Shown piece by piece: positions 1 through 14,756 of a stretch of DNA of 14,756 nt. Source of the stretch: a virus. The notes under the pieces were generated by a model. The model did not search any database, was not told the DNA's origin, and saw only the letters and a program-made list of their open reading frames with translations. The translations under genes and the position numbers were made by a program. The DNA lies in the IMG/VR virus record IMGVR_UViG_3300021057_000107, positions 1 to 14,756 of that record. One strand, written 5' to 3'. The first letter of the stretch is position 1. Every line of letters begins with the position of its first letter.

Positions 1-127
1 GCTCAACGGCCCATTTAAAATCTGCCTTGTCTGTACTGTTCAGCATCTCCAAAAACTTTTGCTTTCCTTTTGCCGTTTTCCAGGCTTCAAGCAGATCATA
101 TTTCAACTGTTGGAACTTATTTTTAGA
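1..127. repeat. Terminal direct repeat, copy 1, identical to 14630..14756 (circular-closure overlap or short terminal redundancy)
   Basis: Read directly: gctcaacggcccatttaaaatctgcc...ggaacttatttttaga occurs at both ends in the same orientation with no mismatch seen. Length is 127. Confidence 0.95.
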
Positions 128-269: not shown

Positions 270-803
270 TTAAGTATCTAATAAATGACTAGTACTTAAA
301 CCTTCACTTTGACGGTAACTGTTACTTTTACTTGTATCCAAGGCATAGTCTATTGATAGGGTATCCATAGGCTCTCTATTGGTGTCTTTTAATGGCTTTT
401 GAATAAGCGCTCGTTGAAAAATATCCTTATCAACATTTAAATATCTTAAAATCTTATCAATATCGAAGTCCCTTGCTCTTTGCTGGATATTCCGGCAGAT
501 GGCTTTGTGAACGGTCTTTTTTAGGTTTATAGGAGCATTCCGTTGATCTTCTATGTGATCTTTAAGCCAAAGCCATTTATTTTCACGCCAGTAATACTTT
601 TGAATCTCTTGCATTAATGGCTCGATCTTTTCTTCAGGGATACGCGTAAAATAAGCAAAATGTTTTGGATTATACTGAATAAATCCGGCAGTGTCGCAAC
701 GGTCATTTAAGTAATAAAGCAAATACCCCGCCTCTGGACTTAAATTCTGATATTCTTCAAGCTCCCATTTAGTTTTGACGCTAAACTTGATATCACCGCT
801 CAA
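270..803 (-). CDS. Hypothetical protein, 177 aa, TTG start; possibly replication-associated by context
   Basis: The start is TTG at 803, with AGGAGG (815..810) 6 nt upstream. It overlaps the upstream TGA as TTGA (800..803). The first in-frame ATG is only at codon 64. I recognise no motif, and the functional guess rests only on coupling to the CHC2 zinc-finger gene. Confidence 0.7.
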   Translation of the reverse strand: MSGDIKFSVKTKWELEEYQNLSPEAGYLLYYLNDRCDTAGFIQYNPKHFAYFTRIPEEKIEPLMQEIQKYYWRENKWLWLKDHIEDQRNAPINLKKTVHKAICRNIQQRARDFDIDKILRYLNVDKDIFQRALIQKPLKDTNREPMDTLSIDYALDTSKSNSYRQSEGLSTSHLLDT

Positions 804-1273
804 ATAACACCTCCTACAAGAAAATTAACTGCCTGGTTAAAATTTAATCCTTTAATATTCATCACAAAATCGATGCTTGTGCCATCAGCCCCACAGCCAA
901 AACAGTGATAACGGTTTTTTTGGTCAATTATCATTGAAGCTTTATCCTCGCGATGAAACGGACAGCAAACCCAATTCTTCTGGCCTTTTTGTTTTATGCC
1001 TTCAAAGTCAAATAAATTCAGTATAGAAACCGCCTTAGCCCTAAGAATCTTCTGTCCAAAGTTCATTGTGTTGTCAGCATGGCCGTTATCTGCAACCAGG
1101 CTTTTAATGCGTTGTAGGTAGGTCGTCATTTCATTTGATTGTTCTTTTTCGGCAATAGTATCTTTCACCTCTGGAAAAATCTTAAGGAGATCAAGCGTGT
1201 CTGGGTATTCGTACTGGTATTCGTACCAATCGCCTTCGTTTACGTCATCCATGTATTTAATTGTTTGTCGCAT
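800..1273 (-). CDS. Stand-alone CHC2 (DnaG-type) zinc-finger protein, 157 aa, with no TOPRIM or primase catalytic domain
   Basis: The C-terminal segment WVCCPFHREDKASMIIDQKNRYHCFGCGADGTSIDFV carries the CPFH...YHCFGCGxxG signature of the primase zinc-binding domain (compare E. coli DnaG CPFHNEKTPSF...YHCFGCGAHG). The protein ends about 25 aa after the finger. There is no obvious SD before the ATG at 1273. Confidence 0.8.
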   Translation of the reverse strand: MRQTIKYMDDVNEGDWYEYQYEYPDTLDLLKIFPEVKDTIAEKEQSNEMTTYLQRIKSLVADNGHADNTMNFGQKILRAKAVSILNLFDFEGIKQKGQKNWVCCPFHREDKASMIIDQKNRYHCFGCGADGTSIDFVMNIKGLNFNQAVNFLVGGVI

Positions 1274-1358: not shown

Positions 1359-2825
1359 TTAAAAGTTATAGTCTATTTCAACATTTCCTTTAGGGAAAAC
1401 CCGAATAATCTTAATCAAAGCGTTTATCATATCTCGCTTTTCTTGTAGAGAAGCTTCTTCCCAATTTTGGTCAAACTCCCTATAAAATCTTTCTTTCTGC
1501 TTAAAATCCTCTTTTTTGGCCTTTTCTACCTCAAGTGAAGCCTTCAAAGAAGAGATATCCCCTTCAAGCTCCTTAATTTCCTTCCGGATTGCCTCGTATC
1601 TCTCCAAGAATTCATCTGGGGGGCTGTCTTGCTTCTCAAAAACCTGTAACCATTTCTTTTTAGCTAAATCTTTCGATTTTAGGGTTTTTTGTTTGTTTTC
1701 GATCTGTGCCTTAATATGGTCTATTTCCTGCTGTGAAGTTACATTTAAATGCCGCTGCATATATCTACTGTCATTTAAAAGCGCTCCAATATGCTCAAAG
1801 ATCATTTCCTTTACCGAACCTTCAAGCTTTTCTTTCTTATGAAATTTACGATGTTCACAGTCTCTTTTCTTGTTCCTTCGGTGGCAAGATGAACAGGCAT
1901 AATATCCTAAGCGACCTCTGTCCTTCTTTTGACTTGGAACCTCTCTTTTAACCATTTCACGCCCACAAAGACCACACTTAGCAACGTCTCTTAAAATAAA
2001 ATCCGGGGCCACACATGACCAACTCGCTTCGTAGCCTTTAAAGTTTGCGTCTCTAATTCTCTGAACTTCTTCAAACATAGGAATTTCGATAATGGGCGGG
2101 TGCTTTTGTTCATAGATAATTTCTTTAACTTTCATGCGTCCAGTATATTTAACATTCGTCAGTATTCGCATTATTTGCCTTCGATCAAGCTTAACCCTTG
2201 CGCTTATGCCTCGCCTTTCTAATTCAATTCGTACGCGGTTATCACTCTTATACTGCAAATACAATTTATAAATAAGCCTGACAATTTCTGCATCTTCCTC
2301 GACTATAACAAATCTTTTCTCAATGGTTTTATATCCAAAGGGCGGTTCTGATCCAAAATTTGTTCCATCACGCTGAACCTTCGTATATCTTCCAGTAATC
2401 ATACGCTCAGCGATATTGTCTCTTTCCATTTGAGCAAATACAGCAATTATGCCCATTATTGCCTCAGAAAACTTGGAGCTTGTATCAAAAGGCTCTGTAA
2501 CAGATTTATAGGTGACGCCGTAATTCTTAAACTCTTGCAGTAGTTCCAGAGTATCCCGTGCTGTTCTACTTAAACGATCTTGTTTCCACACAAATAAATG
2601 CTTAACTCTTCCGCGCCTTATATCTTGCCGCAGTCGTTCAAGTGAGGGTCTATCTACAAATGTAGCCCCACTGGAAGTATCAATATAGAAATCTTGTTCG
2701 GAAAGCTCTAAACCTTGTGACCTTGCAAAAGAAGAGATTCGATCTTTTTGTGTGTCTATTGAGGCGCGGTCTTCCCGAGCTTGTTCAAGAGTGCTGACTC
2801 GTATGTAAGCTTTGCTTGTTTTCAT
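1359..2825 (-). CDS. Large serine recombinase (phage-integrase type), 488 aa
   Basis: The N-terminal resolvase catalytic motif is KAYIRVSTLEQ (Ser11), with the LFVWKQDRLSR motif following. There is a central recombinase domain and a Cys-rich zinc ribbon, CGLCGREM...YYACSSCHRRNKKRDCEH. The long charged C-terminal coiled coil (about residues 360-470) is typical of large serine integrases. Confidence 0.95.
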   Translation of the reverse strand: MKTSKAYIRVSTLEQAREDRASIDTQKDRISSFARSQGLELSEQDFYIDTSSGATFVDRPSLERLRQDIRRGRVKHLFVWKQDRLSRTARDTLELLQEFKNYGVTYKSVTEPFDTSSKFSEAIMGIIAVFAQMERDNIAERMITGRYTKVQRDGTNFGSEPPFGYKTIEKRFVIVEEDAEIVRLIYKLYLQYKSDNRVRIELERRGISARVKLDRRQIMRILTNVKYTGRMKVKEIIYEQKHPPIIEIPMFEEVQRIRDANFKGYEASWSCVAPDFILRDVAKCGLCGREMVKREVPSQKKDRGRLGYYACSSCHRRNKKRDCEHRKFHKKEKLEGSVKEMIFEHIGALLNDSRYMQRHLNVTSQQEIDHIKAQIENKQKTLKSKDLAKKKWLQVFEKQDSPPDEFLERYEAIRKEIKELEGDISSLKASLEVEKAKKEDFKQKERFYREFDQNWEEASLQEKRDMINALIKIIRVFPKGNVEIDYNF

Positions 2826-2937
2826 TAACCTTGCTTGTTTTGTTTATTCTTCTTTCGACGGGTTTTTGATAAATCTTCCAGAAATCATTTTCTGCTGTTT
2901 CTTTAATATTCAAAAACTTAGCTCTTGCCTTAATCAT
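2785..2937 (-). CDS. Possible 50-aa basic micro-ORF coupled to the tyrosine recombinase stop (speculative; candidate accessory or directionality factor)
   Basis: It is absent from the track because it is under 60 aa. The ATG at 2937 overlaps the upstream TGA as ATGA (2934..2937), and GGAGGAG lies just upstream inside the end of the recombinase gene. My translation is MIKARAKFLNIKETAENDFWKIYQKPVERRINKTSKVNENKQSLHTSQHS. Its last 41 nt overlap the large serine recombinase start in another frame, which argues against it. Confidence 0.3.
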   Translation of the reverse strand: MIKARAKFLNIKETAENDFWKIYQKPVERRINKTSKVNENKQSLHTSQHS

Positions 2938-4571
2938 TTCTCCTCCTTTATTGGATTAAAGTATCTCCGGCTTTTTATTAACCATGCCGGAGGATTCTTA
3001 ATTATTTCTTGTACGTCAGACAGAATAACTTGATTCCTCGCCCGCGTTGAGTCACTTTTAATTAACCCTTGCTTTACATATTTATGGGCCGTTGTTAAAG
3101 AAATTCCCAATATCTTCCCCGCCTCTTCAACGGAAATATGATCCTTGCTTACATTCTGAGTTCTTTTCTGGTTAGCATAGAACTTTATTAACCATTCTGG
3201 CTTTGCCTGCAGGATGAGATCAATTTCGTTTTTGCTTAACTCCTTTGCTATGCCGTCATTTCTAACCTTGCTCAAATACCCCTTCTTAACCCAATCTTTT
3301 AACGTCATAACCGAAGTCTTGATATACTTAGCAGCTTCAGCGAACGTCAAGTAAGGATCTTTTGCTCTTTCTTCGGCTGCTTCGCGTAAAATATCCGCTG
3401 TAGTTTTCTTCTTGGCTTCATTAAGTCTCTGCTTTCTCCCTGCTACCTGTTCCTTTAGCCATGCCACACGACGCTCTAAAATGGCAACGTCCTTCTCTGT
3501 GACAAATTCGGAATCATCCTGGACGCCAAGACTTTTTCTTATTTTTTCGTAACCTTCGGTTATTTCATCCTCTTGTTTCTGACGTAGAACATCTTTTCCA
3601 CCAAAAAGCAAAGCATGATCTGCAAACATTTTTTGTGGACTAACATGTGTGTATACTTCGGTCGTTGAGATGCAGCTATGTCCTAATAATTCTTTAATCT
3701 CCAGGGTATTTGCTCCCCCCTCCAACAAATGCGTTGCAAAGGCGTGACGAAATAAATGAGGATGAACACGCTTATTCACTTTTTCCATTAAGGCATATTG
3801 CTTCATTTGTAAACCAACACGTGCTTTATGCAGTTTTTTGCCTTCGCCACTTCCTGCAACGGTAAGAAACACTTTACATTCGGGAAGTAAATCCTCTTTC
3901 TTCTTTGTTTTGTTGTAAGTAGAAATGGCTAGATTTGCCCGACGATTGATAAATACAATTCGTTGTTTAGAGCCTTTGCCAGTGACAACCGCTGATCCAT
4001 CCGATAAATTAAGGTCCTTATTTTCCATATTAAGCACCTCGCTTACTCGGCAACCAGTGCTGTAAAAAGTTTCTAGTAAAGCCCAGTCGCGCAATAACCG
4101 AATTAATGGAGCATTAATGATCTTACAAACTTCATTGACGCTTAGAACATTAGGAAGTGGCCTTTGCAGTTTGGGAAGATCCATTAATAGCCAGTTTGCA
4201 GTACTTGGGATAACTTCATTTCTGGCTAAGAAATTTCCGTAACCACGAAGAATAGTTATGATTCGATGTCTAAGATTTGGCGTAAGGTTGGAAATTTGAC
4301 CTAAAAACTCTCTGACGATTGACCTATCAATTTGATTAACGTTCTTTAAACCATTCTTATTGGTGAATTTTTGGAATCTTCCAAGATAACATTGGTAGGC
4401 TCTTATTGTACTATTTGATAAATTCTTGATCTCACAATCGGCAAGGTAACTCTTAATTGATTTATTTATTGAGTTACTGACAGGAAAAGGTAATTGTAAT
4501 GACCTTTTCTTATTTAGAAGACGAATAATCTCCTGGTGGGTTTCCCTTTTATAAGCAATATGATTAGCCAT
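2934..4571 (-). CDS. Tyrosine recombinase (XerC/XerD-integrase family core) with a roughly 225-aa C-terminal extension carrying two tandem excisionase/MerR-like HTH repeats
   Basis: An N-terminal SAM-like core-binding segment (YLADCEIKNLSNSTIRAYQCYLGRF) is present. A full catalytic set is readable: R174 (STGCRVSE), GKGSKQR, H272-x-x-R275 (HPHLFRHAFATHLL), H298 (LLGHS) and Y307 (TEVYTHV). Residues 321-545 add a coiled coil and two related roughly 57-aa modules, YLTFAEAAKYIKTSVMTLKDWVKKGYL...KPEWLIKF and HISVEEAGKILGISLTTAHKYVKQGLI...PPAWLIKS. Confidence 0.92.
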   Translation of the reverse strand: MANHIAYKRETHQEIIRLLNKKRSLQLPFPVSNSINKSIKSYLADCEIKNLSNSTIRAYQCYLGRFQKFTNKNGLKNVNQIDRSIVREFLGQISNLTPNLRHRIITILRGYGNFLARNEVIPSTANWLLMDLPKLQRPLPNVLSVNEVCKIINAPLIRLLRDWALLETFYSTGCRVSEVLNMENKDLNLSDGSAVVTGKGSKQRIVFINRRANLAISTYNKTKKKEDLLPECKVFLTVAGSGEGKKLHKARVGLQMKQYALMEKVNKRVHPHLFRHAFATHLLEGGANTLEIKELLGHSCISTTEVYTHVSPQKMFADHALLFGGKDVLRQKQEDEITEGYEKIRKSLGVQDDSEFVTEKDVAILERRVAWLKEQVAGRKQRLNEAKKKTTADILREAAEERAKDPYLTFAEAAKYIKTSVMTLKDWVKKGYLSKVRNDGIAKELSKNEIDLILQAKPEWLIKFYANQKRTQNVSKDHISVEEAGKILGISLTTAHKYVKQGLIKSDSTRARNQVILSDVQEIIKNPPAWLIKSRRYFNPIKEEK

Positions 4572-5112
4572 GATTTTTATTCTGGTATCTCAGTAAGTAA
4601 CCTGATTTTCTTCTTCGCCCTTTATCCTTGCTGCCCTGCGGCCTCCCTAAATCACGACCCTTCGCCTTCAATCTGGCTCTTGCACTAACAAGTCCAGCCC
4701 TTGTTCGCTCGCTGATTCTTTTTCGTTCCTGCTGGGCAACCCAACTAAATATTGCCAGCAAAAGCTGCCCTAATCCTTCGTCACGCGTGTCTAGCCAACT
4801 TTCCTGTAATGATTTAAGATCAACCCCATTGCGCTTTAACCGTTCAATGTAACCTAAGGTATTGCTAATTCCTTCACGAGAAAGGCGATCTAACGACCAC
4901 AAAAGAACTAAATCAAACTTCCTTTTGTCTGCATCTTCAAGCATACGTCTAAACTCCGCACGATCTCCATTACTACCGCTTGCCAAATCAACATATTCGT
5001 CAATAATCTCGCCGCCTAAGGCATCTGCATAATTCCTAAGAGGAATTAATTGATTCTGAGGGTCTTGACTTTCATCATTTTTTGAAACCCGGCAATAGAT
5101 AGCAATTTTCAT
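4564..5112 (-). CDS. Small serine recombinase (resolvase/invertase catalytic domain), 182 aa, lacking the usual C-terminal HTH
   Basis: The sequence shows MKIAIYCRVSKNDESQDPQNQ (Ser10), LLWSLDRLSR and the E-helix AQQERKRISERTRAGL. After GRP (residues 156-158) only a 24-aa basic tail remains (QGSKDKGRRRKSGYLLRYQNKNHG). The start overlaps the upstream stop as ATGA (5109..5112), with GGAG 7 nt upstream. The 3' end overlaps the tyrosine recombinase start by 8 nt. Confidence 0.9.
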   Translation of the reverse strand: MKIAIYCRVSKNDESQDPQNQLIPLRNYADALGGEIIDEYVDLASGSNGDRAEFRRMLEDADKRKFDLVLLWSLDRLSREGISNTLGYIERLKRNGVDLKSLQESWLDTRDEGLGQLLLAIFSWVAQQERKRISERTRAGLVSARARLKAKGRDLGRPQGSKDKGRRRKSGYLLRYQNKNHG

Positions 5113-5297
5113 ATGCAGTCTCCATTAAATTTCTTTTTATCAAAAACATTGTCTATGATTTTTTCCGCTTCATTTAATAATAAATATTCGCGACAGGCCT
5201 CCTCAATTAAGATCTGAGTTGCTTTGTCCAACATTGCAATTATCGGTGCGGGTTTCGATTCTGGCGGCTTTGCCTTTTTCCTGCTATTCTTTTTCAT
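5109..5297 (-). CDS. Hypothetical 62-aa protein with a lysine-rich N-terminus
   Basis: I prefer the ATG at 5297 (MKKNSRKKAKPP...) over the track's TTG at 5312, because it forms an ATGA overlap with the XRE gene stop (5294..5297). It is chained by another ATGA to the resolvase gene. I recognise no motif. Confidence 0.6.
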   Translation of the reverse strand: MKKNSRKKAKPPESKPAPIIAMLDKATQILIEEACREYLLLNEAEKIIDNVFDKKKFNGDCI

Positions 5298-5533
5298 CGT
5301 TGCTCCCGGCAAGTTGTAAGGCCTGATCCAAAAAGTGACGGATCAATTCGAGCTGGATCAACACCAAGAATTTTTGCAATAGTGATAACTTCACCCGTAC
5401 TGGGCGTACTCCTATTGGTTTCATACCGCGTTAAACGCGCCTCTTTTATTCCTGATTTCTCCGCAAGCTTGCGCTGGGTTAATTCGGCCTTTAACCGAAA
5501 CACTCGAATATTTTGACCTATACGATTTTCCAT
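5294..5533 (-). CDS. XRE / Cro-C1-type HTH regulator, 79 aa; first gene of the long leftward operon (Cro-like position)
   Basis: IRVFRLKAELTQRKLAEKSGIKEARLTRYETNRSTPSTGEVITIAKILGVDP is a classic HTH_3 pattern. AAGGAGG lies 4 nt upstream of the ATG at 5533. Confidence 0.88.
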   Translation of the reverse strand: MENRIGQNIRVFRLKAELTQRKLAEKSGIKEARLTRYETNRSTPSTGEVITIAKILGVDPARIDPSLFGSGLTTCREQR

Positions 5534-5573
5534 TTTTCCTCCTTGTTAAAACTTTCTTTATTAACCTTTAGAC

Positions 5574-5602
5574 AAAAAAAATCGACTCGATTTTCTAGTC
5601 GA
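5574..5602 (-). terminator. Intrinsic-terminator-like hairpin plus U8 tract in the leader of the leftward operon (alternatively an operator palindrome)
   Basis: The minus strand reads G-TCGACT-AGAAAATCG-AGTCGA-TTTTTTTT. That is a 6-bp perfect stem (5597..5602 with 5582..5587), a 9-nt loop, then eight U (plus-strand A run 5574..5581). The stem is short and only half GC, so it would be weak. Confidence 0.35.
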
Positions 5603-5673
5603 CAAACTTTCTATTAATGCTAAGATTATTAAATTGTTTTGGTTTTGCTTTCCGCATAATTATCTCTGGAATT

Positions 5674-5753
5674 TGGTAATATTTCATTACTATGGTAATA
5701 ATATATCACCCAACAAAACATTTGTCAATAATTGACTGGTAATTTTTTATCAC
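5674..5753. promoter_or_regulatory. Three 17-bp operator-like direct repeats in the divergent control region
   Basis: O1 is 5674..5690 TGGTAATATTTCATTAC. O2 is 5693..5709 TGGTAATAATATATCAC. O3 is 5737..5753 TGGTAATTTTTTATCAC. TGGTAAT is invariant, and the right end is TATCAC in O2 and O3. O2 covers the predicted leftward -10. O3 fills the rightward promoter spacer. Confidence 0.55.
5700..5728 (-). promoter_or_regulatory. Predicted leftward sigma70-type promoter
   Basis: On the minus strand, TTGACA (5728..5723) is followed by a 17-nt spacer and TATATT (5705..5700). This implies a leader of about 160 nt before the 79-aa XRE gene. Confidence 0.5.
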
Positions 5754-5759
5754 TATAAT
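5732..5759 (+). promoter_or_regulatory. Predicted rightward sigma70-type promoter driving a leaderless mRNA
   Basis: TTGACT (5732..5737) is followed by a 16-nt spacer and TATAAT (5754..5759). The A of the ATG at 5766 is the 7th nt after the -10, and no SD lies between them. This promoter sits back-to-back with the leftward -35, 3 bp apart. Confidence 0.65.
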
Positions 5760-5765
5760 CAGCTT

Positions 5766-6065
5766 ATGAACGTCACATGGAAGGAAGTTGCATCTGAAAT
5801 TCGAAAAAAGCGTAGGCTCTTAGATATAACTCAAGAAGAGTTCGCTAAAATGATTCATACTGGACAATCTTTTGTCGCGCAGATGGAGAAAGGCGAAAAA
5901 GTGCCCTCTATAGAGGTTGCTAAGAAGATTGCTAAGGAACTTGATATAGACTTTAACCGAATTAAGAATGCCATTATACTGAAAAAAGCAGAACCATTTT
6001 CCGCACCCGCAGGATCAACGATCCAGATAAAAACTCATACACGTATAATCATTCCAAAGAAGTAA
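5766..6065 (+). CDS. XRE-type HTH regulator, 99 aa; the only plus-strand gene (CI-like position), with no peptidase domain
   Basis: IRKKRRLLDITQEEFAKMIHTGQSFVAQMEKGEKVPSIEVAKKIAKELDID is an HTH_3 pattern. The gene is transcribed divergently from the 79-aa XRE gene. Confidence 0.88.
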   Translation: MNVTWKEVASEIRKKRRLLDITQEEFAKMIHTGQSFVAQMEKGEKVPSIEVAKKIAKELDIDFNRIKNAIILKKAEPFSAPAGSTIQIKTHTRIIIPKK

Positions 6066-6109: not shown

Positions 6110-6514
6110 TTATCCATGATTATATAGAGTAAAATTCTTATCTATCCATAATATGTGAAAAATTCTTCCCAATTTAAAGCCAACCATTGGAGCCTGACCT
6201 ATACAACGAAAAGCAATCATATCAACATCCTCTGTTACCTTAGCAGGAATCGACACTTTTAAAGCATTGCGAGCTATTTTTTCGTAACCAAGGCCGTCCC
6301 GCGGAGCTAATCTTAATTCCTTCCATGTCAATTTGCTTCTCTTATAGAGAGCCATTGCAAAATGAGCCTTTTGGTCTTTTTGACATGAATGGACACAATA
6401 TCCGTCAACCATAAATTCTAAAGAAAATATTGGAGTTTGATCGTCAGATTTGTCGGAGGGAACGTAATGCGGTTGGATTCTTCCAGTGTTTAGTTTAGGC
6501 TCGCGAAATGTCAC
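6110..6514 (-). CDS. Unrecognised 134-aa protein immediately downstream of a Panacea-domain antitoxin; candidate toxin
   Basis: A GTG start at 6514 lies 3 nt after the upstream TAA (6518..6520) with no separate SD, which suggests coupling. The C-terminus FRCIGQAPMVGFKLGRIFHILWIDKNFTLYNHG loosely recalls the terminal beta strands of RelE/ParE-like folds. That is weak and by eye only. Confidence 0.6.
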   Translation of the reverse strand: MTFREPKLNTGRIQPHYVPSDKSDDQTPIFSLEFMVDGYCVHSCQKDQKAHFAMALYKRSKLTWKELRLAPRDGLGYEKIARNALKVSIPAKVTEDVDMIAFRCIGQAPMVGFKLGRIFHILWIDKNFTLYNHG

Positions 6515-6517
6515 GAA

Positions 6518-6976
6518 TTATTCAACAACAAGGGTCTTAAAATATTCTTTCATTGAAGCGTGAGTGATAACCTCAACGCCAGCACCCTTTTCAAATGCTT
6601 CTTTCCAAGGAGCCTCTTCGTGAGTTAAATTTCTTAATTTCCAGGCGGAGAATTGACCAAAAACTCTATATACTTCATCCAAAAGGTCTTGAACTTTTTT
6701 ATCATAAATTGATAAGTCTAATTTATCGGGAGCAGGAATACTATCCGCACCATAATCTCTATATTTTCGATACAAGGACGGTATCACAGGACCATGTTGC
6801 CATGCCTCAATCTCCTCAGTAAACAAAGGCTCATTAAACATAGCCAAATGAAATCCTTGAGCATAATAACAAAGTTTCTGTAATTTAAGATTTGAGATCA
6901 TATCCCCTGCTTCAGGATCATTTTTGGCAAGAAAATAATTAGCAATATCTTCGACTGATAATTGGCGGGTAGGCAT
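6518..6976 (-). CDS. Panacea / DUF4065 (SocA, GepA-like) antitoxin-domain protein, 152 aa
   Basis: NLKLQKLCYYAQGFHLAMFNEPLFTEEIEAWQHGPVIPSLYRKY matches the family hallmark (LQKLLYYAQG...IEAW.HGPV...Y). AGGAG (6989..6985) lies upstream of the ATG at 6976. Confidence 0.85.
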   Translation of the reverse strand: MPTRQLSVEDIANYFLAKNDPEAGDMISNLKLQKLCYYAQGFHLAMFNEPLFTEEIEAWQHGPVIPSLYRKYRDYGADSIPAPDKLDLSIYDKKVQDLLDEVYRVFGQFSAWKLRNLTHEEAPWKEAFEKGAGVEVITHASMKEYFKTLVVE

Positions 6977-7002
6977 AAATATTTCTCCTATAAAGAGTGT
7001 AC

Positions 7003-7031
7003 AATATAGCGTAAAATTGTCAACTAGTCAA
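7003..7031 (-). promoter_or_regulatory. Predicted promoter of the antitoxin-toxin pair
   Basis: On the minus strand, TTGACT (7031..7026) is followed by a 17-nt spacer and TATATT (7008..7003). The leader to the SD is about 20 nt. A GTCAAC direct repeat (7019..7024 and 7027..7032) overlaps the -35 region. Confidence 0.55.
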
Positions 7032-7078
7032 CAGGTAAGAGTCTTGGGGTCATTTATTATAATTTAACTCTTTACTGT
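7031..7078. repeat. Imperfect 12-bp inverted repeat with a 24-bp spacer (48 bp overall) between terL and the TA module
   Basis: ACAGGTAAGAGT (7031..7042) pairs with ACTCTTTACTGT (7067..7078). The reverse complement of the right arm is ACAGTAAAGAGT, which matches 10 of 12 positions. Confidence 0.5.
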
Positions 7079-8533: not shown

Positions 8534-11500
8534 TTACCTGATCCTTTTATAAAGTTCTAAGACTTCAAGATTTAAAAGACCTGACTTCTTTGCTTCGGAT
8601 AATTTGTTAAGCAACTCTTCACCTTCAAGGCCTTCGGTTATTTCAAGAACCATACCGACACGGGCGGATACTTTTGCTTTATCTAGAATCTTATCTATAT
8701 TTTTTGCCTTTAACTCATCGTCGGTGTCTTCGTAAGAGTCCATTTGCATATAAGAAGAAATCTTATCAAAGGCTATTGCTCCGGCGTTTTGCCAAAGTTC
8801 CGTGTTCTGTTCTGGCGTTAATATGTCATAGCCTTCACGGCCTCCCAACAAAGTAGTCGATATTTCAAAACCCAGATCTGTTAGCCTCCGTAACTCCTGA
8901 ACAATGGGGTCTTTTATTTCCGTCATCGGTCTTGTAGGATCAGCCATGATTTCAAAGAAGTTTTCTGGAATGATCCGTTCTCTTCCTAGGACATCAATCT
9001 GTGGCTCTAGGCTGCTTCTAAGAAACGGAATCCTTGAAGCAATTGCATTTGATATGTTTTCAACCCGACGTTCTGTTTTGTCTGTTGCCTTTGCAATATC
9101 CGCTATTATCGTTGGCACAAATGAAGAGATGAGCCCAGAGGTGAAATACTCTGCAGATCGTTCTGGGTCGGTTAATGCGTCGATAGCCGAAGACATCCCC
9201 TTAAGAAACGTTTGCTCTGAGAAAGACTTTGCGCTTCCAAAGATCGTCTTTGATATTGCTTCTGTTGGGCTTCCTGATTCTTGAAGTCTTTTCGCAAACT
9301 GCCCGCCGATTAAGATAAGGTTTCCTGCAGGGCCTAAGACCTGAATTGATCGCCATGTATCACCGATTTTGATTGAATTAGCTTTTCGATTTTCAAGCTT
9401 TGCTAATTCCTTAAGTCTTTCGGAAATCGGTCTATCAAGGGTCAAGTCGCCCCTGTTGTAAAGATCATAACCAAACCACAAAAGCGGAACGCCTAATAAA
9501 GCACGGCCCATTCCTTTTGAAAAGTCGCGTTGATCCCATTTTCCTTTTCCGATATTTTCAAGAGCCGTCTTTATAACTCCGGCAGGGCTGTAGTTGATAA
9601 TCTGCATTGCAACGGCTGAAGGCGTCTTACTGAATGGTAGGACAAATTCACCTCCTGGGATATTCTGAATCGCTCGACCAGCTTTTGATAAGAAAGTTTC
9701 GTTCTGGAAAGTTGCTGCTTCAGCATCGGAAACTGCTAAAACCAGAGTATCATCAGTTGGATTTTCGATAAGATTGTTAATATAAGTTTCGGCTTCCTTG
9801 CCTTTTAAACCTTTATTCTTTGCGGCGACAATGGCTTGCTCTGCGATAGAACGAGCTTTTGCACCGTAATAAAATATCTGATCTTCTGCGCCTAGAATCT
9901 TAAAGACTCCTTCTTCATAAGCCTGTAGACCTTTGGCAATTTTTCCTTTACCAAATGATACGCGACGGTAATCAAACTTACCTAAAACGTTTCGCTCATC
10001 GTAACCAGTTTTTAAGAATCGCCAGCCCTTTTCGAAACCTTCTTTGATACCACTAGAAAGCCCTCTGGTTGTAAAGGCAACGGCTCGCTTCCCAGTGAAT
10101 AACGAAACAACACTATCAACAGCAACGGCTGGAATATCTTTTAAAACTTCCGTACCGAAGGCATGAGAAGCGTTGCTGAATATATTCAAGCCTGAAGTTT
10201 TAATGCCTGTGAGTAATCCGGCTTTCCAAACAGTCGTGATTTTCTTGAGCAATGGCGTAGGCACAAGATCATTTAGATAGTCTTGCATCTCTTTCCATGC
10301 GACGGCCTTGGCTTCTCCGTCGGGAAGTTGTGATATTGCGGTGACTCTATCACGAATAAACCTTGCTTGTTCGCCAGTAAGTTCCGGGATTTTCTTTCGT
10401 AGACCAAACATACCAGCGTCTTTCTCGACTTCAGCGTTGTATCGTTTAATGGTTTGAGCTGCGAATTTGATCTGTCCTTCAGGCGTTTGACGTGAAAGAA
10501 TAGAAGCTGCCTGCACAGAACGGCCTAACTCGGTTAATCGAACAGCCATATCATTTCCTAACTCAGCCGCCCTCTCATAGAGAGCGTCAGCTACAGCAGG
10601 CTCCGTGGCTTTCTCAGCTAATTCGGTATAATGTTTTAACAACTCTGCCCCTGTAGCAATTGAAGCATCATCAGTCCCGGTTCTTGCCATTGTCTCAGCA
10701 AGAGCTAAGTCCTCTTGAATTAACGTTCTTGCCTTTTGTGCTAACTCATCAGTACTTCTGGGTACATATTGCCCTGAGACTTTTAATATCGGCAGTTCTT
10801 CTTTGATCGAAGTAATAAATTTCCTTTCTTTGTATCCTGGTTTTATCGTTTCGCCTGCGGCAGCTTTAGCAACGGTCACGGGGTCTGTTGCTGCCTTACC
10901 TGCAGTTTCTCCGACAGCCTTAATTGCGGCCTTTGGGTCATTCGGTGCAGGAACGCCAGTATATAACTTAGGACTCTTAAGATATTTATCAGCCCTTTGG
11001 AAAAAATAAGCCTGAACCTCTGGACGTTGCATATAGGCCCAGGCTTCTTCAGCGTTCATGTTCATTTTTTCCATCACAGTGGAATGAATTTTAGCGGTCG
11101 AGTTCCTAAGAAGATTTCTAGCAGCGTTGATTTGATAGTTTTCTATCATGACTGGAATACTTTGAAGACCGCCATAAATAAACAAATCTTCAATCGCTCC
11201 GGCAACTGCCCGAGGAATTAAAGCGGCGATGCCTCCTTCACGCTCTTTTTGCGTAAATGGTATTCGATCATGTGCGGTGATCTTTACCACCGAAGAAGGC
11301 ATAACAACCGCTTTGATAACATCAGCACCTAACTCGTCAGTCTGACCTGTCACAACGTCGCCAACAAAAGCCCGAACTGGTTCATAAATCCTACCTACCA
11401 GAGTTTCAAAAGCAGCATCAGCAAGCTTTAGACCTGGGTCTACTACGGCACGATTTGCTTTGAGCCTGGCTTCAGTGTCAATCTTTCCCGTCATTAAAAA

Positions 11501-11797
11501 TGAACCTGCATCTTTAACATCTTGGGCCATTGATTGACCTACACCTTTGACAAACTCCGGCACGGCCTTAATGGTTTCCTTTGCCTTTTTCTCCATTGCA
11601 AACCAATTTTCGTCCGAAATAATCGGCTCAGCTTGAGCTAATATCTGCATAATCGACTGACGCGGAGACTTTCCATACTCATTTATATTAATGTGATGCT
11701 GCACATCAATGTCGTGCATATCGCCGGGATAAGACAAAGACTTATTTTTATCTTCAAGATAAATTTCTTTATTAGGTAAAACGGTAATAGGTAGCAT
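8534..11797 (-). CDS. Giant 1087-aa protein of unknown function; possibly virion-associated or packaged, by position only
   Basis: The frame is uninterrupted over 3264 nt. Its ATG overlaps the upstream stop as TAATG (11795..11799), and its TAA directly abuts the terL ATG (TAAATG, 8531..8536). It is mostly helical and Ala/Lys-rich, with a low-complexity linker (APNDPKAAIKAVGETAGKAATDPVTVAKAAAGE) and hydrophobic patches near the C-terminal third. I found no catalytic motif. Confidence 0.85.
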   Translation of the reverse strand: MLPITVLPNKEIYLEDKNKSLSYPGDMHDIDVQHHININEYGKSPRQSIMQILAQAEPIISDENWFAMEKKAKETIKAVPEFVKGVGQSMAQDVKDAGSFLMTGKIDTEARLKANRAVVDPGLKLADAAFETLVGRIYEPVRAFVGDVVTGQTDELGADVIKAVVMPSSVVKITAHDRIPFTQKEREGGIAALIPRAVAGAIEDLFIYGGLQSIPVMIENYQINAARNLLRNSTAKIHSTVMEKMNMNAEEAWAYMQRPEVQAYFFQRADKYLKSPKLYTGVPAPNDPKAAIKAVGETAGKAATDPVTVAKAAAGETIKPGYKERKFITSIKEELPILKVSGQYVPRSTDELAQKARTLIQEDLALAETMARTGTDDASIATGAELLKHYTELAEKATEPAVADALYERAAELGNDMAVRLTELGRSVQAASILSRQTPEGQIKFAAQTIKRYNAEVEKDAGMFGLRKKIPELTGEQARFIRDRVTAISQLPDGEAKAVAWKEMQDYLNDLVPTPLLKKITTVWKAGLLTGIKTSGLNIFSNASHAFGTEVLKDIPAVAVDSVVSLFTGKRAVAFTTRGLSSGIKEGFEKGWRFLKTGYDERNVLGKFDYRRVSFGKGKIAKGLQAYEEGVFKILGAEDQIFYYGAKARSIAEQAIVAAKNKGLKGKEAETYINNLIENPTDDTLVLAVSDAEAATFQNETFLSKAGRAIQNIPGGEFVLPFSKTPSAVAMQIINYSPAGVIKTALENIGKGKWDQRDFSKGMGRALLGVPLLWFGYDLYNRGDLTLDRPISERLKELAKLENRKANSIKIGDTWRSIQVLGPAGNLILIGGQFAKRLQESGSPTEAISKTIFGSAKSFSEQTFLKGMSSAIDALTDPERSAEYFTSGLISSFVPTIIADIAKATDKTERRVENISNAIASRIPFLRSSLEPQIDVLGRERIIPENFFEIMADPTRPMTEIKDPIVQELRRLTDLGFEISTTLLGGREGYDILTPEQNTELWQNAGAIAFDKISSYMQMDSYEDTDDELKAKNIDKILDKAKVSARVGMVLEITEGLEGEELLNKLSEAKKSGLLNLEVLELYKRIR

Positions 11798-13212
11798 TAA
11801 AGATCCTCAAAGTTGATTTGTAGGTTATTAAAAGCTGTACTCACCGGCTTTTGATTTACCTTCTTGCCCTTAGCCTTACTTTCTTTCTTGTACGCTCCGA
11901 TGATTCTATTTCGATTTCCGACAAGGTTAGGAACATCGGGAAGCTGTGTCGTTGAAGGAAAATTTTTGCGAATGTAGTCTTTTTGAACAGTCTGCATGAC
12001 AACATCGGGGTCGGCATTTGGTTGCTTATCTAGACGTTGAAAGAAATTAAATACAATCTCATCTTCGTCTTCCGGAAAAGACTTGGAAGCCCAATCGCCC
12101 AAAGCTTGTGCAGAAGCTCTTATTGTGATTGTTCGGGAGTCAAGTGGATCGTAAGCACTCTTAACTAAATACTCTCTATCCTGCGGCGTTAAACTGCTAA
12201 TGCTTTCGATAATCTTTTGATTAACTTCTTTCCGCTTCTTGCCTTCAAGCTGAAGAGCTTTAATCTGGTTGTAAGATTGAAAGTCCGTTCTCTCTGCCGG
12301 AGCATCATAAATTGAAGCGATATATTTCTCGCCAAAATCTTTTCGAATACCCGTTGAAATAAGCAGATCTTTGACTTTTGTTTGCGTTACCGTACCGAAA
12401 TTTAAAAGTAAATCAGTTTCGTTCTGATCCTGATTAAGATTGACAGTATGGTCATTCAAAATTCTATTACGCCGAATGTGTAATTTTGTTTTCTCCAAAC
12501 GCTCTGCTCTCTCAGCATCGGTAAGATGAGCGTATTCACCATCCTTGCCAGCTTGTAACTGACTATAAACCCAGGAATTTTCTTGTTCCAAAGCTTGATC
12601 TTGCATAATATCTAAATCAACAGAGCCAAGACGATAATCGTCCAAAAGCTTTCTTCCTCCGGCCTCAGTAATCACACCACTGACCACGTTAGCCTCAATC
12701 AATTGCCCCATCTTTTTATCAATGTCTTGCCTTACGGATATCTTCGGTGCATTAGACTTTTCAAGAGACATATTACGCACGGTTTCTTCAAGATTTTGGT
12801 AAGCCTTGAAATGCTGCTTTTGTTTGAATATTCCTTCAATTTCAATTTTGGCAATAGCCAGGTCCTTCTTAAAATGCAAAGCAACATTCTCCCGAACCTG
12901 GGCGTTTTTTATCTGAGTTGGCGAAAGTTTTTCGGCTTTATTAAGTTCTTTTAAATATTTTTCAACGTTGTCGGGGTTTTGGTCTTCAAGAGCTTGCTGC
13001 TTAACTCTAGCGATATGCGTTGAAACCTCTGCACTTGTCTTATTGACTTGCATAACATCATTCGCATTAGACCAATCCTGAGCAATCTGATTGACAGTGT
13101 TAAGAAGGTTTTGATTTGCTTGTGCTGCTTGATCGACTTCATTACGAATTGGAGCTTGTAATTTACTTTCAATATTACGTTTTGATGTATATGTTGGTAA
13201 TGATGGTGACAT
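11797..13212 (-). CDS. 471-aa charged, coiled-coil-rich protein of unknown function (scaffold-like or internal-protein-like is only a guess)
   Basis: I prefer the ATG at 13212 (MSPSLPTYTSKRN...), which has GAAAGGAA upstream, over the track's TTG at 13272. The extra 20 codons are a translation of a GC-rich hairpin. The composition is Gln/Lys/Glu-rich and helical. Confidence 0.8.
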   Translation of the reverse strand: MSPSLPTYTSKRNIESKLQAPIRNEVDQAAQANQNLLNTVNQIAQDWSNANDVMQVNKTSAEVSTHIARVKQQALEDQNPDNVEKYLKELNKAEKLSPTQIKNAQVRENVALHFKKDLAIAKIEIEGIFKQKQHFKAYQNLEETVRNMSLEKSNAPKISVRQDIDKKMGQLIEANVVSGVITEAGGRKLLDDYRLGSVDLDIMQDQALEQENSWVYSQLQAGKDGEYAHLTDAERAERLEKTKLHIRRNRILNDHTVNLNQDQNETDLLLNFGTVTQTKVKDLLISTGIRKDFGEKYIASIYDAPAERTDFQSYNQIKALQLEGKKRKEVNQKIIESISSLTPQDREYLVKSAYDPLDSRTITIRASAQALGDWASKSFPEDEDEIVFNFFQRLDKQPNADPDVVMQTVQKDYIRKNFPSTTQLPDVPNLVGNRNRIIGAYKKESKAKGKKVNQKPVSTAFNNLQINFEDL

Positions 13213-13232
13213 GAATTCCTTTCTTGCCGTAA

Positions 13233-13256
13233 CCCCCGGCCTTTTCAAACCAGGGG
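13233..13256 (-). other. GC-rich hairpin in the short gap before the 471-aa gene
   Basis: Minus-strand RNA forms CCCCUGG (13256..13250) paired with CCGGGGG (13239..13233). That is a 7-bp stem including one G-U wobble, with a 10-nt loop. On the plus strand the same position would be a C-A mismatch. No U tract follows. Confidence 0.45.
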
Positions 13257-13276
13257 CTAGGCAGACACACAAATTG

Positions 13277-14510: not shown

Positions 14511-14756
14511 TTATTTGTTACCATCGGCCTTTTTTTCTGTTGGATCATTAATAACAATTAAAACCTTTGGTTCGCCCACAGTGGCGTCAATATCAATTAA
14601 TGACTCTTTTGGCAAGATCGCAACAATGCGCTCAACGGCCCATTTAAAATCTGCCTTGTCTGTACTGTTCAGCATCTCCAAAAACTTTTGCTTTCCTTTT
14701 GCCGTTTTCCAGGCTTCAAGCAGATCATATTTCAACTGTTGGAACTTATTTTTAGA
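14511..14756 (-). CDS. 3' part of the same junction-spanning ORF (14630..14756 duplicates 1..127)
   Basis: The frame is continuous with 1..259 through the repeat. The stop is TAA at 14511..14513. The joined length is 378 nt, which is 125 aa plus stop. Confidence 0.5.
   Translation of the reverse strand, partial: SKNKFQQLKYDLLEAWKTAKGKQKFLEMLNSTDKADFKWAVERIVAILPKESLIDIDATVGEPKVLIVINDPTEKKADGNK
14630..14756. repeat. Terminal direct repeat, copy 2, identical to 1..127
   Basis: Same comparison as copy 1. The repeat starts at the g of caacaatgcg|ctcaacggcc and runs to the last base of the window. Confidence 0.95.

What the first reader, a model, noticed from the sequence alone, without database searches (positions are those of the whole stretch)
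6110..6976. Panacea (DUF4065) antitoxin paired with an unrecognised 134-aa partner: candidate new toxin or defence cargo
The 152-aa protein has the hallmark Panacea/SocA-family sequence. In the described PanA-PanT systems this domain neutralises many unrelated toxin domains encoded next to it. Here the partner starts with GTG 3 nt after the antitoxin stop, and the pair has its own TTGACT and TATATT promoter. It is the last module before the convergence point, a typical position for moron or defence cargo. I cannot place the 134-aa protein in a known toxin family. Only its C-terminal strands (GRIFHILWIDKNFTLY) faintly recall RelE/ParE-like folds.
Basis: partly seen in the sequence, partly recalled or inferred. 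Interest (0 to 1): 0.65.

Follow-up and report, generated by a model that had tools for sequence, protein, structure and literature searches.

The report
Panacea antitoxin with RelE-like partner
A small mobile element carries a two-gene cassette, a Panacea-domain "antitoxin" followed by a small basic protein that looks like a RelE/YoeB-type RNA-cutting toxin; this pairing is real and strictly conserved but was already catalogued in 2022, and nobody has yet shown that the partner is toxic.

Summary
On the minus strand a 152-aa Panacea/DUF4065 protein (6518-6976; Pfam E=6.8e-22) is followed 3 nt later by a 134-aa GTG-start ORF (6110-6514), behind a TTGACT-17-TATATT promoter-like site.

The partner is not a new toxin family. 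It belongs to a family of about 1,082 representative proteins with no Pfam model. Two members that I confirmed as homologues (Cylindrospermum WP_015208861.1; Salmonella phage Emek YP_006560566.1, 42% identity) are listed in Kurata et al. 2022 as PanT cluster T1, which holds 217 of 1,268 predicted pairs and is labelled "mRNase".

In all 33 related loci examined, a PanA gene lies directly upstream.

The fold is probably RelE-like. A confident model (pLDDT 90.7) has RelE/YoeB topology, but Foldseek hits are sub-significant (best RelE, prob 0.93, E=0.07). 64 of 70 members match the C-terminal BECR RNase region of Menshen NsnC. E78, R103, Y131 and H133 are conserved, resembling the YoeB catalytic set.

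Toxicity is unproven. Published tests found the Emek and an E. coli T1 protein "not toxic", and a Clostridium one toxic but not neutralised. The Emek construct carried a 22-residue non-native N-terminal extension.

Verdict: new member of a known, unvalidated kind; modest interest.

The parts
7003..7031 (-). Sigma-70-type promoter-like site TTGACT-17 nt-TATATT upstream of panA. A second overlapping match, TTGACA-16-TACACT, lies at 7023-6996.
   Evidence: 10 of 12 matches each; sequence. These are consensus matches only and are not shown to function.
7018..7033 (.). Imperfect palindrome TGTCAACTAGTCAACA overlapping the -35 hexamers; a possible operator.
   Evidence: I4, 82% complementary. No evidence of binding. 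PanA here has no DNA-binding domain.
6985..6989 (-). Shine-Dalgarno AGGAG, 8 nt upstream of the panA ATG.
   Evidence: sequence read directly.
6518..6976 (-). panA: a 152-aa stand-alone Panacea/DUF4065 protein with no extra N-terminal domain; acidic, pI 5.1.
   Evidence: Pfam PF13274 E=6.8e-22, residues 32-125. phrog_1281 E=1.8e-52. NCBIfam SocA model 81 bits, below its 190-bit equivalog cut-off. pI.
6110..6514 (-). Partner gene (PanT cluster T1 type): 134 aa, GTG start 3 nt after the panA stop, basic (pI 9.3). Predicted divergent RelE/YoeB-like (BECR-fold) endoribonuclease. Invariant or near-invariant W64, G76, E78, R103, D125, Y131, H133.
   Evidence: phrog_8366 E=4.6e-46. PADLOC NsnC positions 184-284 of 284, E=7e-6, with 64 of 70 relatives matching, best 4e-11. 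1,082 representatives. AF2 pLDDT 90.7. Foldseek RelE prob 0.93. Conservation. Homology to the T1 members of Kurata et al..
5988..6004 (-). Weak intrinsic-terminator-like hairpin plus T-run, about 105 nt downstream of the partner's stop and inside the 3' end of the convergent HTH gene.
   Evidence: 1 found against 1.0 expected by chance, so not significant.

Best explanation
This is a PanA-PanT two-gene cassette of the already catalogued T1 type, carried as accessory cargo by a small, probably circular 14.6-kb phage-like or integrative element.

The downstream 134-aa basic protein is a divergent member of the RelE/YoeB (BECR) fold. It is homologous to the C-terminal effector domain (PB-BECR1) of the Menshen defence protein NsnC. 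It most likely acts as an endoribonuclease, probably on mRNA and possibly on the ribosome, using E78 as general base, H133 as general acid, and R103 and Y131 to hold the scissile phosphate. This would parallel YoeB Glu46, His83, Arg65 and Tyr84.

The upstream acidic stand-alone Panacea protein most likely binds the partner directly and keeps it inactive. The two genes are probably translationally coupled (3-nt gap, no Shine-Dalgarno sequence before the GTG) and transcribed from their own promoter, independently of the packaging genes.

The likely biological role is conflict-related: abortive-infection or superinfection defence for the lysogen, and/or stabilisation of the element.

Shown here: domain identities, family membership, strict gene linkage, conserved residues, predicted fold topology, charge complementarity and the promoter-like site.

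Inferred: RNase activity, toxicity, neutralisation by PanA and any defence role.
For: - PanA identity: Pfam PF13274 E=6.8e-22.
- Linkage: 33 of 33 loci have a PanA gene directly upstream on the same strand, in otherwise unrelated neighbourhoods. These include a defence island beside HigB and an MmeI-type restriction-modification gene, and the accessory slot between injection genes and immI in P22-like phages.
- Family membership: P0183 = WP_015208861.1 and Emek YP_006560566.1 (41.9% identity over 96% of the query, E=1e-28) are both T1 entries in Kurata et al. Dataset S1 and Table S1.
- Structure: the AF2 model has pLDDT 90.7 and beta-alpha-alpha-beta-beta-beta-beta topology. Foldseek's best hit is archaeal RelE 1wmi_A (prob 0.93, TM 0.59 on the target), followed by YoeB, HigB2, YafQ, RelK, ParE and PrpT.
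- Residues: E78, R103, Y131 and H133 are retained in all 20 distinct locus-derived sequences and are invariant or at least 90% conserved across 70 diverse members. They lie in beta2, beta3 and the C-terminal tail, as do YoeB Glu46, Arg65 and His83-Tyr84 (PMC3814384).
- Charge: partner pI 9.3 (family median 9.6) against PanA pI 5.1.
- Mechanism precedent: stand-alone Panacea antitoxins neutralise by direct binding (PMC10440598).
- Accessory status: four TerL-related viral contigs lack the pair.
Against: - No member of this family has been shown to be a neutralisable toxin. In Kurata et al. Table S1, Emek YP_006560566.1 and E. coli WP_077635758.1 were 'not toxic' in E. coli. C. cadaveris WP_074844970.1 was toxic, but its PanA 'failed to neutralise' it. 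I did not verify that the C. cadaveris protein is a close homologue of the window protein.
- The Emek protein retains every conserved residue, so its lack of toxicity is not explained by decay. Its tested ORF did carry 22 non-native N-terminal residues.
- The fold assignment is not statistically secure. No Foldseek hit reaches E<=1e-3. There are no Pfam RelE, YoeB or ParE hits for 70 members. A profile search of PDB sequences found nothing. hhalign against single E. coli YoeB, YafQ and RelE sequences gave no signal.
- In Mycoplasma mycoides, a RelE-like gene next to a DUF4065 gene is quasi-essential while the DUF4065 gene is dispensable (PMC13621843). That is the reverse of TA logic. Whether that protein belongs to this family is unverified.
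Confidence: 0.6

Rival explanations
1. Sensor-effector pair rather than antidote-poison. The RelE-like protein would be a latent RNase that is harmless on its own and is switched on, not merely released, through PanA when a phage cue is sensed. This is analogous to NsnC, which needs NsnA and NsnB in Menshen.
For: - Two homologues were not toxic alone, and in the third case PanA did not neutralise.
- All conserved residues are retained in the non-toxic Emek protein.
- The same effector domain is used in Menshen under the control of other subunits.
- Ernits et al. propose a sensory role for Panacea.
- The reversed essentiality in Mycoplasma is compatible with this reading.
Against: - In stand-alone Panacea systems that were validated, PanA neutralises directly.
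- The negative toxicity tests used N-terminally extended ORFs in a heterologous setting.
- C. cadaveris T1 was toxic alone.
- The basic-toxin/acidic-partner charge pattern and gene coupling are classic type II TA features.
Confidence: 0.2
2. A non-toxic RNA-binding or RNA-processing pair with a regulatory or housekeeping role and no conflict function.
For: - 'Not toxic' results for two homologues.
- Quasi-essentiality of a RelE-like, DUF4065-adjacent gene in the minimal Mycoplasma.
- 53 of 70 members match the Mollicutes MAG6450 family model, best E=2e-11.
Against: - The distribution is patchy and tied to mobile elements: prophage accessory slots, a defence island, 48 of 5,426 E. coli genomes.
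- Homology to a defence effector domain.
- The catalytic-type residues are strictly conserved.
Confidence: 0.1
3. A ParE-like gyrase poison rather than an RNase. The RelE/ParE fold supports both activities.
For: ParE structures (6xrw, 6x0a, 6n90) are among the weak Foldseek hits. Kurata et al. found ParE-type PanTs in other clusters.
Against: - RelE, YoeB, YafQ and HigB rank above ParE.
- An invariant Glu, Arg and C-terminal Tyr-x-His set resembles the YoeB RNase site.
- The sequence homology is to an RNase-type BECR effector.
Confidence: 0.05
4. The 134-aa ORF is a spurious or chance-adjacent ORF.
For: It has a GTG start, no Shine-Dalgarno sequence and no Pfam match.
Against: There are 1,082 representative homologues. 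phrog_8366 matches at E=4.6e-46. Linkage is 33 of 33. The fold prediction is confident.
Confidence: 0.01

Closest known systems
PanA-PanT pairs of toxin cluster T1 (Kurata et al. 2022, PNAS, PMC8832971, Dataset S1 and Table S1)
   Same: A stand-alone ('noNTD') Panacea gene comes first, followed within a few nucleotides by a hypothetical protein of about 135-145 aa. The window partner is directly homologous to two T1 entries: WP_015208861.1 (45% identity) and phage Emek YP_006560566.1 (42% identity). It also occurs in phages and prophages. Kurata et al. predict it to be an 'mRNase'.
   Different: This is a new sequence, at most 66% identical to anything found, on an uncultivated, probably circular 14.6-kb element. 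Neither this cluster nor this copy has been validated as a toxin-antitoxin pair.
YoeB / RelE / YafQ ribosome-dependent mRNA interferases (RelE/ParE or BECR superfamily)
   Same: Predicted beta-alpha-alpha-beta-beta-beta-beta topology. Basic protein. Conserved Glu in beta2, Arg in beta3 and an aromatic-His motif at the extreme C-terminus, like YoeB Glu46, Arg65 and His83-Tyr84. The best structural matches are to these proteins.
   Different: No significant sequence or profile match to them. It is 40-50 residues longer, with a disordered basic N-terminal tail of about 25 residues and an insertion between beta2 and beta3. It is paired with Panacea rather than a YefM, RelB or DinJ antitoxin. Activity is untested.
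Menshen NsnC C-terminal effector domain PB-BECR1 (Li et al. 2025, NAR, PMC12065111)
   Same: Significant HMM similarity to positions 184-284 of the PADLOC NsnC model, for 64 of 70 family members. Both are predicted BECR RNase effectors in conflict systems.
   Different: The window protein is stand-alone with no inPIN N-terminal domain. There are no NsnA (ParB-DUF262) or NsnB (ABC ATPase) genes nearby. The proposed catalytic set is E-R-(Y)-H here against H-R-H reported for NsnC. The Menshen paper does not mention a Panacea-linked stand-alone form.
SocA-SocB (type VI TA, Caulobacter)
   Same: SocA carries the same Panacea domain.
   Different: The window PanA scores 81 bits against the 190-bit equivalog cut-off of the SocA model. 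The partner is unrelated to SocB. A ClpXP-adaptor mechanism is not implied.
NCBIfam MAG6450 family / Mycoplasma mycoides MMSYN1_0416-0417 (PMC13621843)
   Same: A small RelE-like protein sits next to a DUF4065 gene. 53 of 70 family members match the MAG6450 model.
   Different: The window protein scores 16.4 bits against a 40-bit cut-off. I could not verify that MMSYN1_0416 belongs to the family. In Mycoplasma the toxin-like gene is quasi-essential.

Membership tests
Panacea/DUF4065 antitoxin (PanA) | Panacea domain above the Pfam gathering score | tested here: met
   PF13274, 78.9 bits against a 25.7 cut-off, E=6.8e-22, residues 32-125.
Panacea/DUF4065 antitoxin (PanA) | Conserved two-gene architecture with a partner within 100 nt (the Kurata et al. 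criterion) | tested here: met
   3-nt gap in the window. A PanA gene lies directly upstream in 33 of 33 related loci.
Panacea/DUF4065 antitoxin (PanA) | Neutralises the partner's toxicity and forms a complex with it | not testable with these tools
   Needs co-expression and pull-down experiments. For T1, the only published neutralisation attempt failed (C. cadaveris).
SocA (type VI antitoxin) equivalog | Score above the NCBIfam NF047745 equivalog cut-off | tested here: not met
   81.2 bits against a 190 cut-off.
PanT cluster T1 (Kurata et al. 2022) | Sequence homology to catalogued T1 members | tested here: met
   P0183 = WP_015208861.1 (45% identity, profile E=2.7e-51). Emek YP_006560566.1 shows 41.9% identity over 96% of the query, E=1e-28.
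PanT cluster T1 (Kurata et al. 2022) | Antitoxin-then-toxin gene order with a PanA lacking an N-terminal domain | tested here: met
   Dataset S1 rows read 'noNTD, A|T'.
PanT cluster T1 (Kurata et al. 2022) | Toxic when expressed alone | not testable with these tools
   Published tests of homologues: 2 not toxic and 1 toxic. The Emek construct was N-terminally extended by 22 aa.
RelE/ParE (BECR) fold RNase toxins | RelE-like fold | tested here: inconclusive
   The model has pLDDT 90.7 with matching topology. Foldseek's best hit is RelE 1wmi_A at prob 0.93 but E=0.073 and TM 0.42/0.59. Many superfamily members follow, but none reaches E<=1e-3.
RelE/ParE (BECR) fold RNase toxins | Sequence or profile match to an established family of the superfamily | tested here: inconclusive
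   Positive only through the NsnC C-terminal BECR region (64 of 70 members, best 4e-11). Negative for Pfam, the PDB profile search and hhalign against single YoeB, YafQ and RelE sequences.
RelE/ParE (BECR) fold RNase toxins | Catalytic acid/base residues in the beta-sheet and C-terminal tail | tested here: inconclusive
   E78, R103, Y131 and H133 are conserved and lie in the elements that hold YoeB Glu46, Arg65, His83 and Tyr84. No residue-level structural superposition was available.
RelE/ParE (BECR) fold RNase toxins | Endoribonuclease activity | not testable with these tools
   Needs biochemistry.
Menshen (NsnABC) defence system | NsnA (ParB-DUF262) and NsnB (ABC ATPase) genes adjacent | tested here: not met
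   No such domains in any window ORF. PADLOC gives only the NsnC C-terminal hit.
Menshen (NsnABC) defence system | NsnC architecture: N-terminal inPIN domain plus C-terminal effector | tested here: not met
   The match covers only positions 184-284 of the 284-position model. The protein is 134 aa.
NCBIfam MAG6450 family | Score above the curated cut-off | tested here: not met
   16.4 bits against a 40 cut-off. The family is related but distinct: 53 of 70 relatives match at E<=0.1, best 2e-11.

The most novel reading that the evidence does not exclude
The T1 partner may not be a classical poison held by an antidote. It may be a latent RelE-like RNase effector that needs PanA as a phage-sensing activator or licensing factor. 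That would make PanA-T1 a minimal two-protein immune sensor-effector built around the same BECR domain that Menshen controls with NsnA and NsnB. This reading would explain why correctly conserved T1 proteins were non-toxic alone, why PanA failed to neutralise in the one toxic case, and why a Mycoplasma DUF4065 gene is dispensable while its RelE-like neighbour is not.
Probability: 0.2. Interest if true: 0.6.

Novelty: new member of a known kind. Interest (0 to 1): 0.3.

Why it matters
As a single locus it adds little. It is one more copy of a predicted PanAT pair that was catalogued in 2022.

Three points have some value:
- T1 is one of the two largest Panacea-associated partner clusters (217 of 1,268 pairs), and it still has no validated toxin-antitoxin behaviour.
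- The published negative tests for the phage Emek member, and probably the E. coli member, used mis-annotated, N-terminally extended ORFs. Those tests deserve repeating from the native start.
- The family shares a BECR RNase domain with the Menshen effector NsnC. Neither the Panacea papers nor the Menshen paper I read states this link. It gives a concrete catalytic hypothesis (E78, R103, Y131, H133) that can be tested by mutagenesis.

Tried and rejected
- Pfam on the partner and on 70 relatives: no credible family.
- PDB sequence searches with the single protein and with the 70-member profile: nothing.
- hhalign of the family profile against single E. coli YoeB, YafQ and RelE sequences: no signal, probabilities 1.2% or lower. 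This is a weak test, because one side was a single sequence.
- Foldseek against BFVD viral structures: no informative hit.
- The search for related loci with the diverse alignment A2 failed for lack of conserved stretches. Repeated with A1.
- NetFlax (PMC10440598) supplements held as text contain none of the relevant accessions, so I could not place the family in that network.
- My first linkage script read only one locus because of a file-layout assumption. Its 'NO PanA hit' lines are an artefact, corrected.
- Horizontal-transfer signal from composition: none. The pair has GC 0.37-0.38 against 0.40 for the window.
- Menshen membership was considered and rejected: no NsnA, NsnB or inPIN.
- SocA/type VI was considered and rejected: below the equivalog cut-off and no SocB.
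- I could not obtain an NsnC or MMSYN1_0416 sequence to align residues directly.

Full report
**1. Observation**

The window encodes two ORFs on the minus strand: a 152-aa ORF at 6518-6976 and a 134-aa GTG-start ORF at 6110-6514. The junction reads GTT GTT GAA TAA TTC GTG, so the second gene starts 3 nt after the first gene's stop, with no Shine-Dalgarno sequence in between. The two closest homologues begin at the same residue.

Upstream of the first gene there is an AGGAG 8 nt before the ATG and a TTGACT-17-TATATT promoter-like site at 7031-7003 (10 of 12 matches). That site overlaps an imperfect palindrome, TGTCAACTAGTCAACA. Promoter-like matches are only about twofold enriched in this AT-rich stretch, so the promoter is plausible but not demonstrated.

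The pair converges on a + strand HTH gene at 5766-6065.

**2. The first gene**

It is a stand-alone Panacea/DUF4065 protein. It matches Pfam PF13274 at E=6.8e-22 over residues 32-125 and phrog_1281 at E=1.8e-52. It falls well below the SocA equivalog cut-off, 81 against 190 bits. It is therefore a PanA-type protein, not a SocA orthologue.

**3. The second gene**

It has no Pfam match, but it is not an orphan:
- It matches phrog_8366 (function unknown) at E=4.6e-46.
- An exhaustive profile search finds 1,082 representative proteins at E<=1e-3 and 673 at E<=1e-10. Almost all of the best 150 are 130-150 aa.
- Named members are all 'hypothetical protein'. They come from cyanobacteria, Pseudomonas, Arsenophonus and others.
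- Across 70 diverse members, W64, G76, E78 and Y131 are invariant. P28, F30, C44, I80, P90, R103, G112, D125 and H133 are at least 90% conserved.

**4. Linkage**

In three long metagenomic or genomic contigs the homologue is preceded by a SocA_Panacea gene with an 8-nt overlap. The neighbourhoods are otherwise unrelated, and one lies between a HigB/HTH-M78 pair and an MmeI-type restriction-modification gene.

I then collected 12 genome loci, 16 viral contigs and phage Emek. All 33 loci carry a close PanA homologue directly upstream on the same strand, at E=1e-39 to 1e-62. About 19 have distinct partner sequences; the Pseudomonas prophage copies are identical. The pair is a co-inherited unit.

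**5. It is already catalogued**

P0183 (45% identical to the window protein) is WP_015208861.1 of Cylindrospermum stagnale. Dataset S1 of Kurata et al. 2022 (PMC8832971) lists it as the predicted toxin of PanA WP_015208860.1, in cluster pT1/T1, with antitoxin-then-toxin order and a 'noNTD' PanA.

T1 has 217 rows of the 1,268 predicted pairs, level with the MqsR cluster T2 at 218. It spans Firmicutes, Actinobacteria, Bacteroidetes, Proteobacteria, Cyanobacteria and Mollicutes.

Salmonella phage vB_SemP_Emek YP_006560566.1 is another T1 entry. It is 41.9% identical to the window protein over 96% of its length (tblastn E=1e-28).

**6. What the partner probably is**

- PADLOC's NsnC model matches the window protein at E=7e-6 and matches 64 of 70 relatives (best 4e-11). 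The match is always to model positions of about 184-284 of 284.
- An AlphaFold2 model built on 70 sequences is confident (pLDDT 90.7, pTM 0.78). After a disordered basic N-terminal tail, it shows strand-helix-helix followed by four strands and a C-terminal tail. This is the RelE/YoeB topology.
- Foldseek against the PDB ranks archaeal RelE first (1wmi_A, prob 0.93, E=0.073, TM 0.59 on the target). YoeB, HigB2, YafQ, RelK, ParE and PrpT chains follow. No hit reaches E<=1e-3.
- E. coli YoeB uses Glu46 as base, His83 as acid, Arg65 and Tyr84, with His-Tyr at the extreme C-terminus (PMC3814384). In the window family, E78 (strand 77-80), R103 (strand 99-105) and Y131-x-H133 (C-terminal tail) sit in the corresponding elements. 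This correspondence is an inference, not a superposition.
- The partner is basic (pI 9.3; family median 9.6) and PanA is acidic (pI 5.1).

Direct profile tests against RelE-family sequences were negative. The fold assignment rests on the NsnC link plus consistent but sub-threshold structural matches.

**7. Is it a toxin?**

This is unproven and the data are mixed. Kurata et al. Table S1 reports:
- Emek YP_006560566.1: 'not toxic'.
- E. coli MOD1 WP_077635758.1 (also T1): 'not toxic'.
- Clostridium cadaveris WP_074844970.1 (T1): 'toxic', but its PanA 'failed to neutralise'.

No T1 pair is among their validated systems. The Emek protein keeps every conserved residue.

There is a caveat. The annotated Emek ORF starts at a TTG inside panA (62-nt overlap) and encodes 161 aa. 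An ATG 5 nt after the panA stop gives a 139-aa protein, which is exactly how RefSeq annotates the nearly identical E. coli prophage gene WP_024173453.1. The tested construct therefore carried 22 non-native, hydrophobic N-terminal residues.

The '-20' overlap listed for the E. coli MOD1 entry fits a TTG eight codons upstream of the same ATG. This is an inference, because I did not see that sequence. These negatives lower confidence in 'toxin' but do not settle it.

A further oddity comes from Mycoplasma mycoides JCVI-syn3.0. There a distant RelE-like gene next to a DUF4065 gene is quasi-essential, while the DUF4065 gene is dispensable (PMC13621843). 53 of 70 family members match NCBIfam's Mollicutes 'MAG6450' model (best 2e-11), and T1 includes Spiroplasma. 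I could not verify that MMSYN1_0416 belongs to this family.

**8. Context**

- In P22-like phages and prophages (Emek, phiv205-1, EC.P3, E. coli IMT5155), the pair occupies the accessory slot between the DNA-injection genes and the immI (arc/ant) region.
- It is present in 48 of 5,426 complete E. coli genomes.
- It is rare on plasmids, 4 of 72,556 records.
- In the window it lies between the large terminase gene and a regulatory/recombinase module.
- Four viral contigs with related terminases (36-58% identity) lack it.
- Its GC content does not differ from the rest of the window.

**9. Mechanism and rivals**

Best-supported explanation: a PanA-PanT(T1) cassette. A YoeB/RelE-like endoribonuclease is kept inactive by direct binding of a stand-alone Panacea protein. 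The cassette serves defence or maintenance of the element. Identity and linkage are secure. The RNase-toxin mechanism is at about 0.6.

Main rival (0.2): the partner is a latent effector that needs PanA as a sensor or activator. This fits the non-toxic results and the use of the same domain in Menshen.

Minor rivals: a non-conflict RNA-processing role (0.1), a ParE-like gyrase poison (0.05), and a spurious ORF (0.01 or less).

**10. Novelty and score**

This is a new member of a known, predicted and still unvalidated kind. The points of residual interest are the unvalidated status of one of the largest PanT clusters, the start-codon problem in the published negative tests, and the homology to the Menshen effector domain, which the papers I read do not state. 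Interest is 0.3.

Noticed in passing
window 1-127 and 14630-14756: The first and last 127 bases are identical. This is the usual assembler signature of a circular contig, so the window is probably a complete circular element of about 14,629 bp. It carries a large terminase, but no capsid or portal is recognisable by Pfam or PHROGs. That is too small for a typical tailed phage and suggests a satellite or another small integrative, packaging-competent element.
   Followed up: partly
window 1359-5112 (minus strand): Three recombinase genes lie in a row: a large serine recombinase (488 aa, 1359-2825), a 545-aa tyrosine integrase with a C-terminal extension carrying two HTH_17 (excisionase-like) motifs (2934-4571), and a small resolvase/invertase (182 aa, 4564-5112) that overlaps the integrase start by 8 nt. 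This is unusual redundancy for a 14.6-kb element.
   Followed up: no
window 8534-13272 (minus strand): Two large ORFs lie upstream of the terminase gene. The 1087-aa one has only a weak C-terminal match to phrog_6651 'internal virion protein' (E=1.3e-10). The 491-aa one has no match in Pfam or PHROGs. In the closest TerL relative (L037, 58% identity), TerL is instead followed by head genes and a portal-sized 559-aa ORF, so the gene order here is atypical.
   Followed up: partly
window 800-1273 (minus strand): A 157-aa protein consists of little more than a DnaG-type CHC2 zinc finger (PF01807, E=3.7e-19). It matches only the N-terminal zinc-binding part of phage primases and has no catalytic primase domain.
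   Followed up: no
window 5294-6065: Divergent HTH_3 regulator genes (79 aa on the minus strand at 5294-5533; 99 aa on the plus strand at 5766-6065) flank a 230-nt intergenic region. That region holds strong back-to-back promoter-like sites, TTGACT-16-TATAAT and TTGACA-17-TATATT, 11 of 12 matches each. It looks like a cI/cro-style switch.
   Followed up: no
L005 3905-4390 (Salmonella phage Emek, NC_018275.1 15152-15637): The annotated gp16 (YP_006560566.1, 161 aa, TTG start with a 62-nt overlap into gp15) is probably over-extended by 22 codons. An ATG 5 nt after the gp15 stop gives the 139-aa form that RefSeq uses for the E. coli prophage orthologue. The published 'not toxic' test used the long form.
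   Followed up: yes
L041 3024-3299 (Escherichia phage phiv205-1): The gene upstream of the partner is annotated as only 276 nt, against about 444 nt for PanA in related phages. This could mean a disrupted or mis-annotated panA beside an intact partner gene, which would bear on whether the partner is toxic.
   Followed up: no
L001 and L013: The same partner protein sequence (P0010) occurs in a JGI metagenome contig and in a 'Candidatus Sulfopaludibacter' MAG.
   Followed up: no
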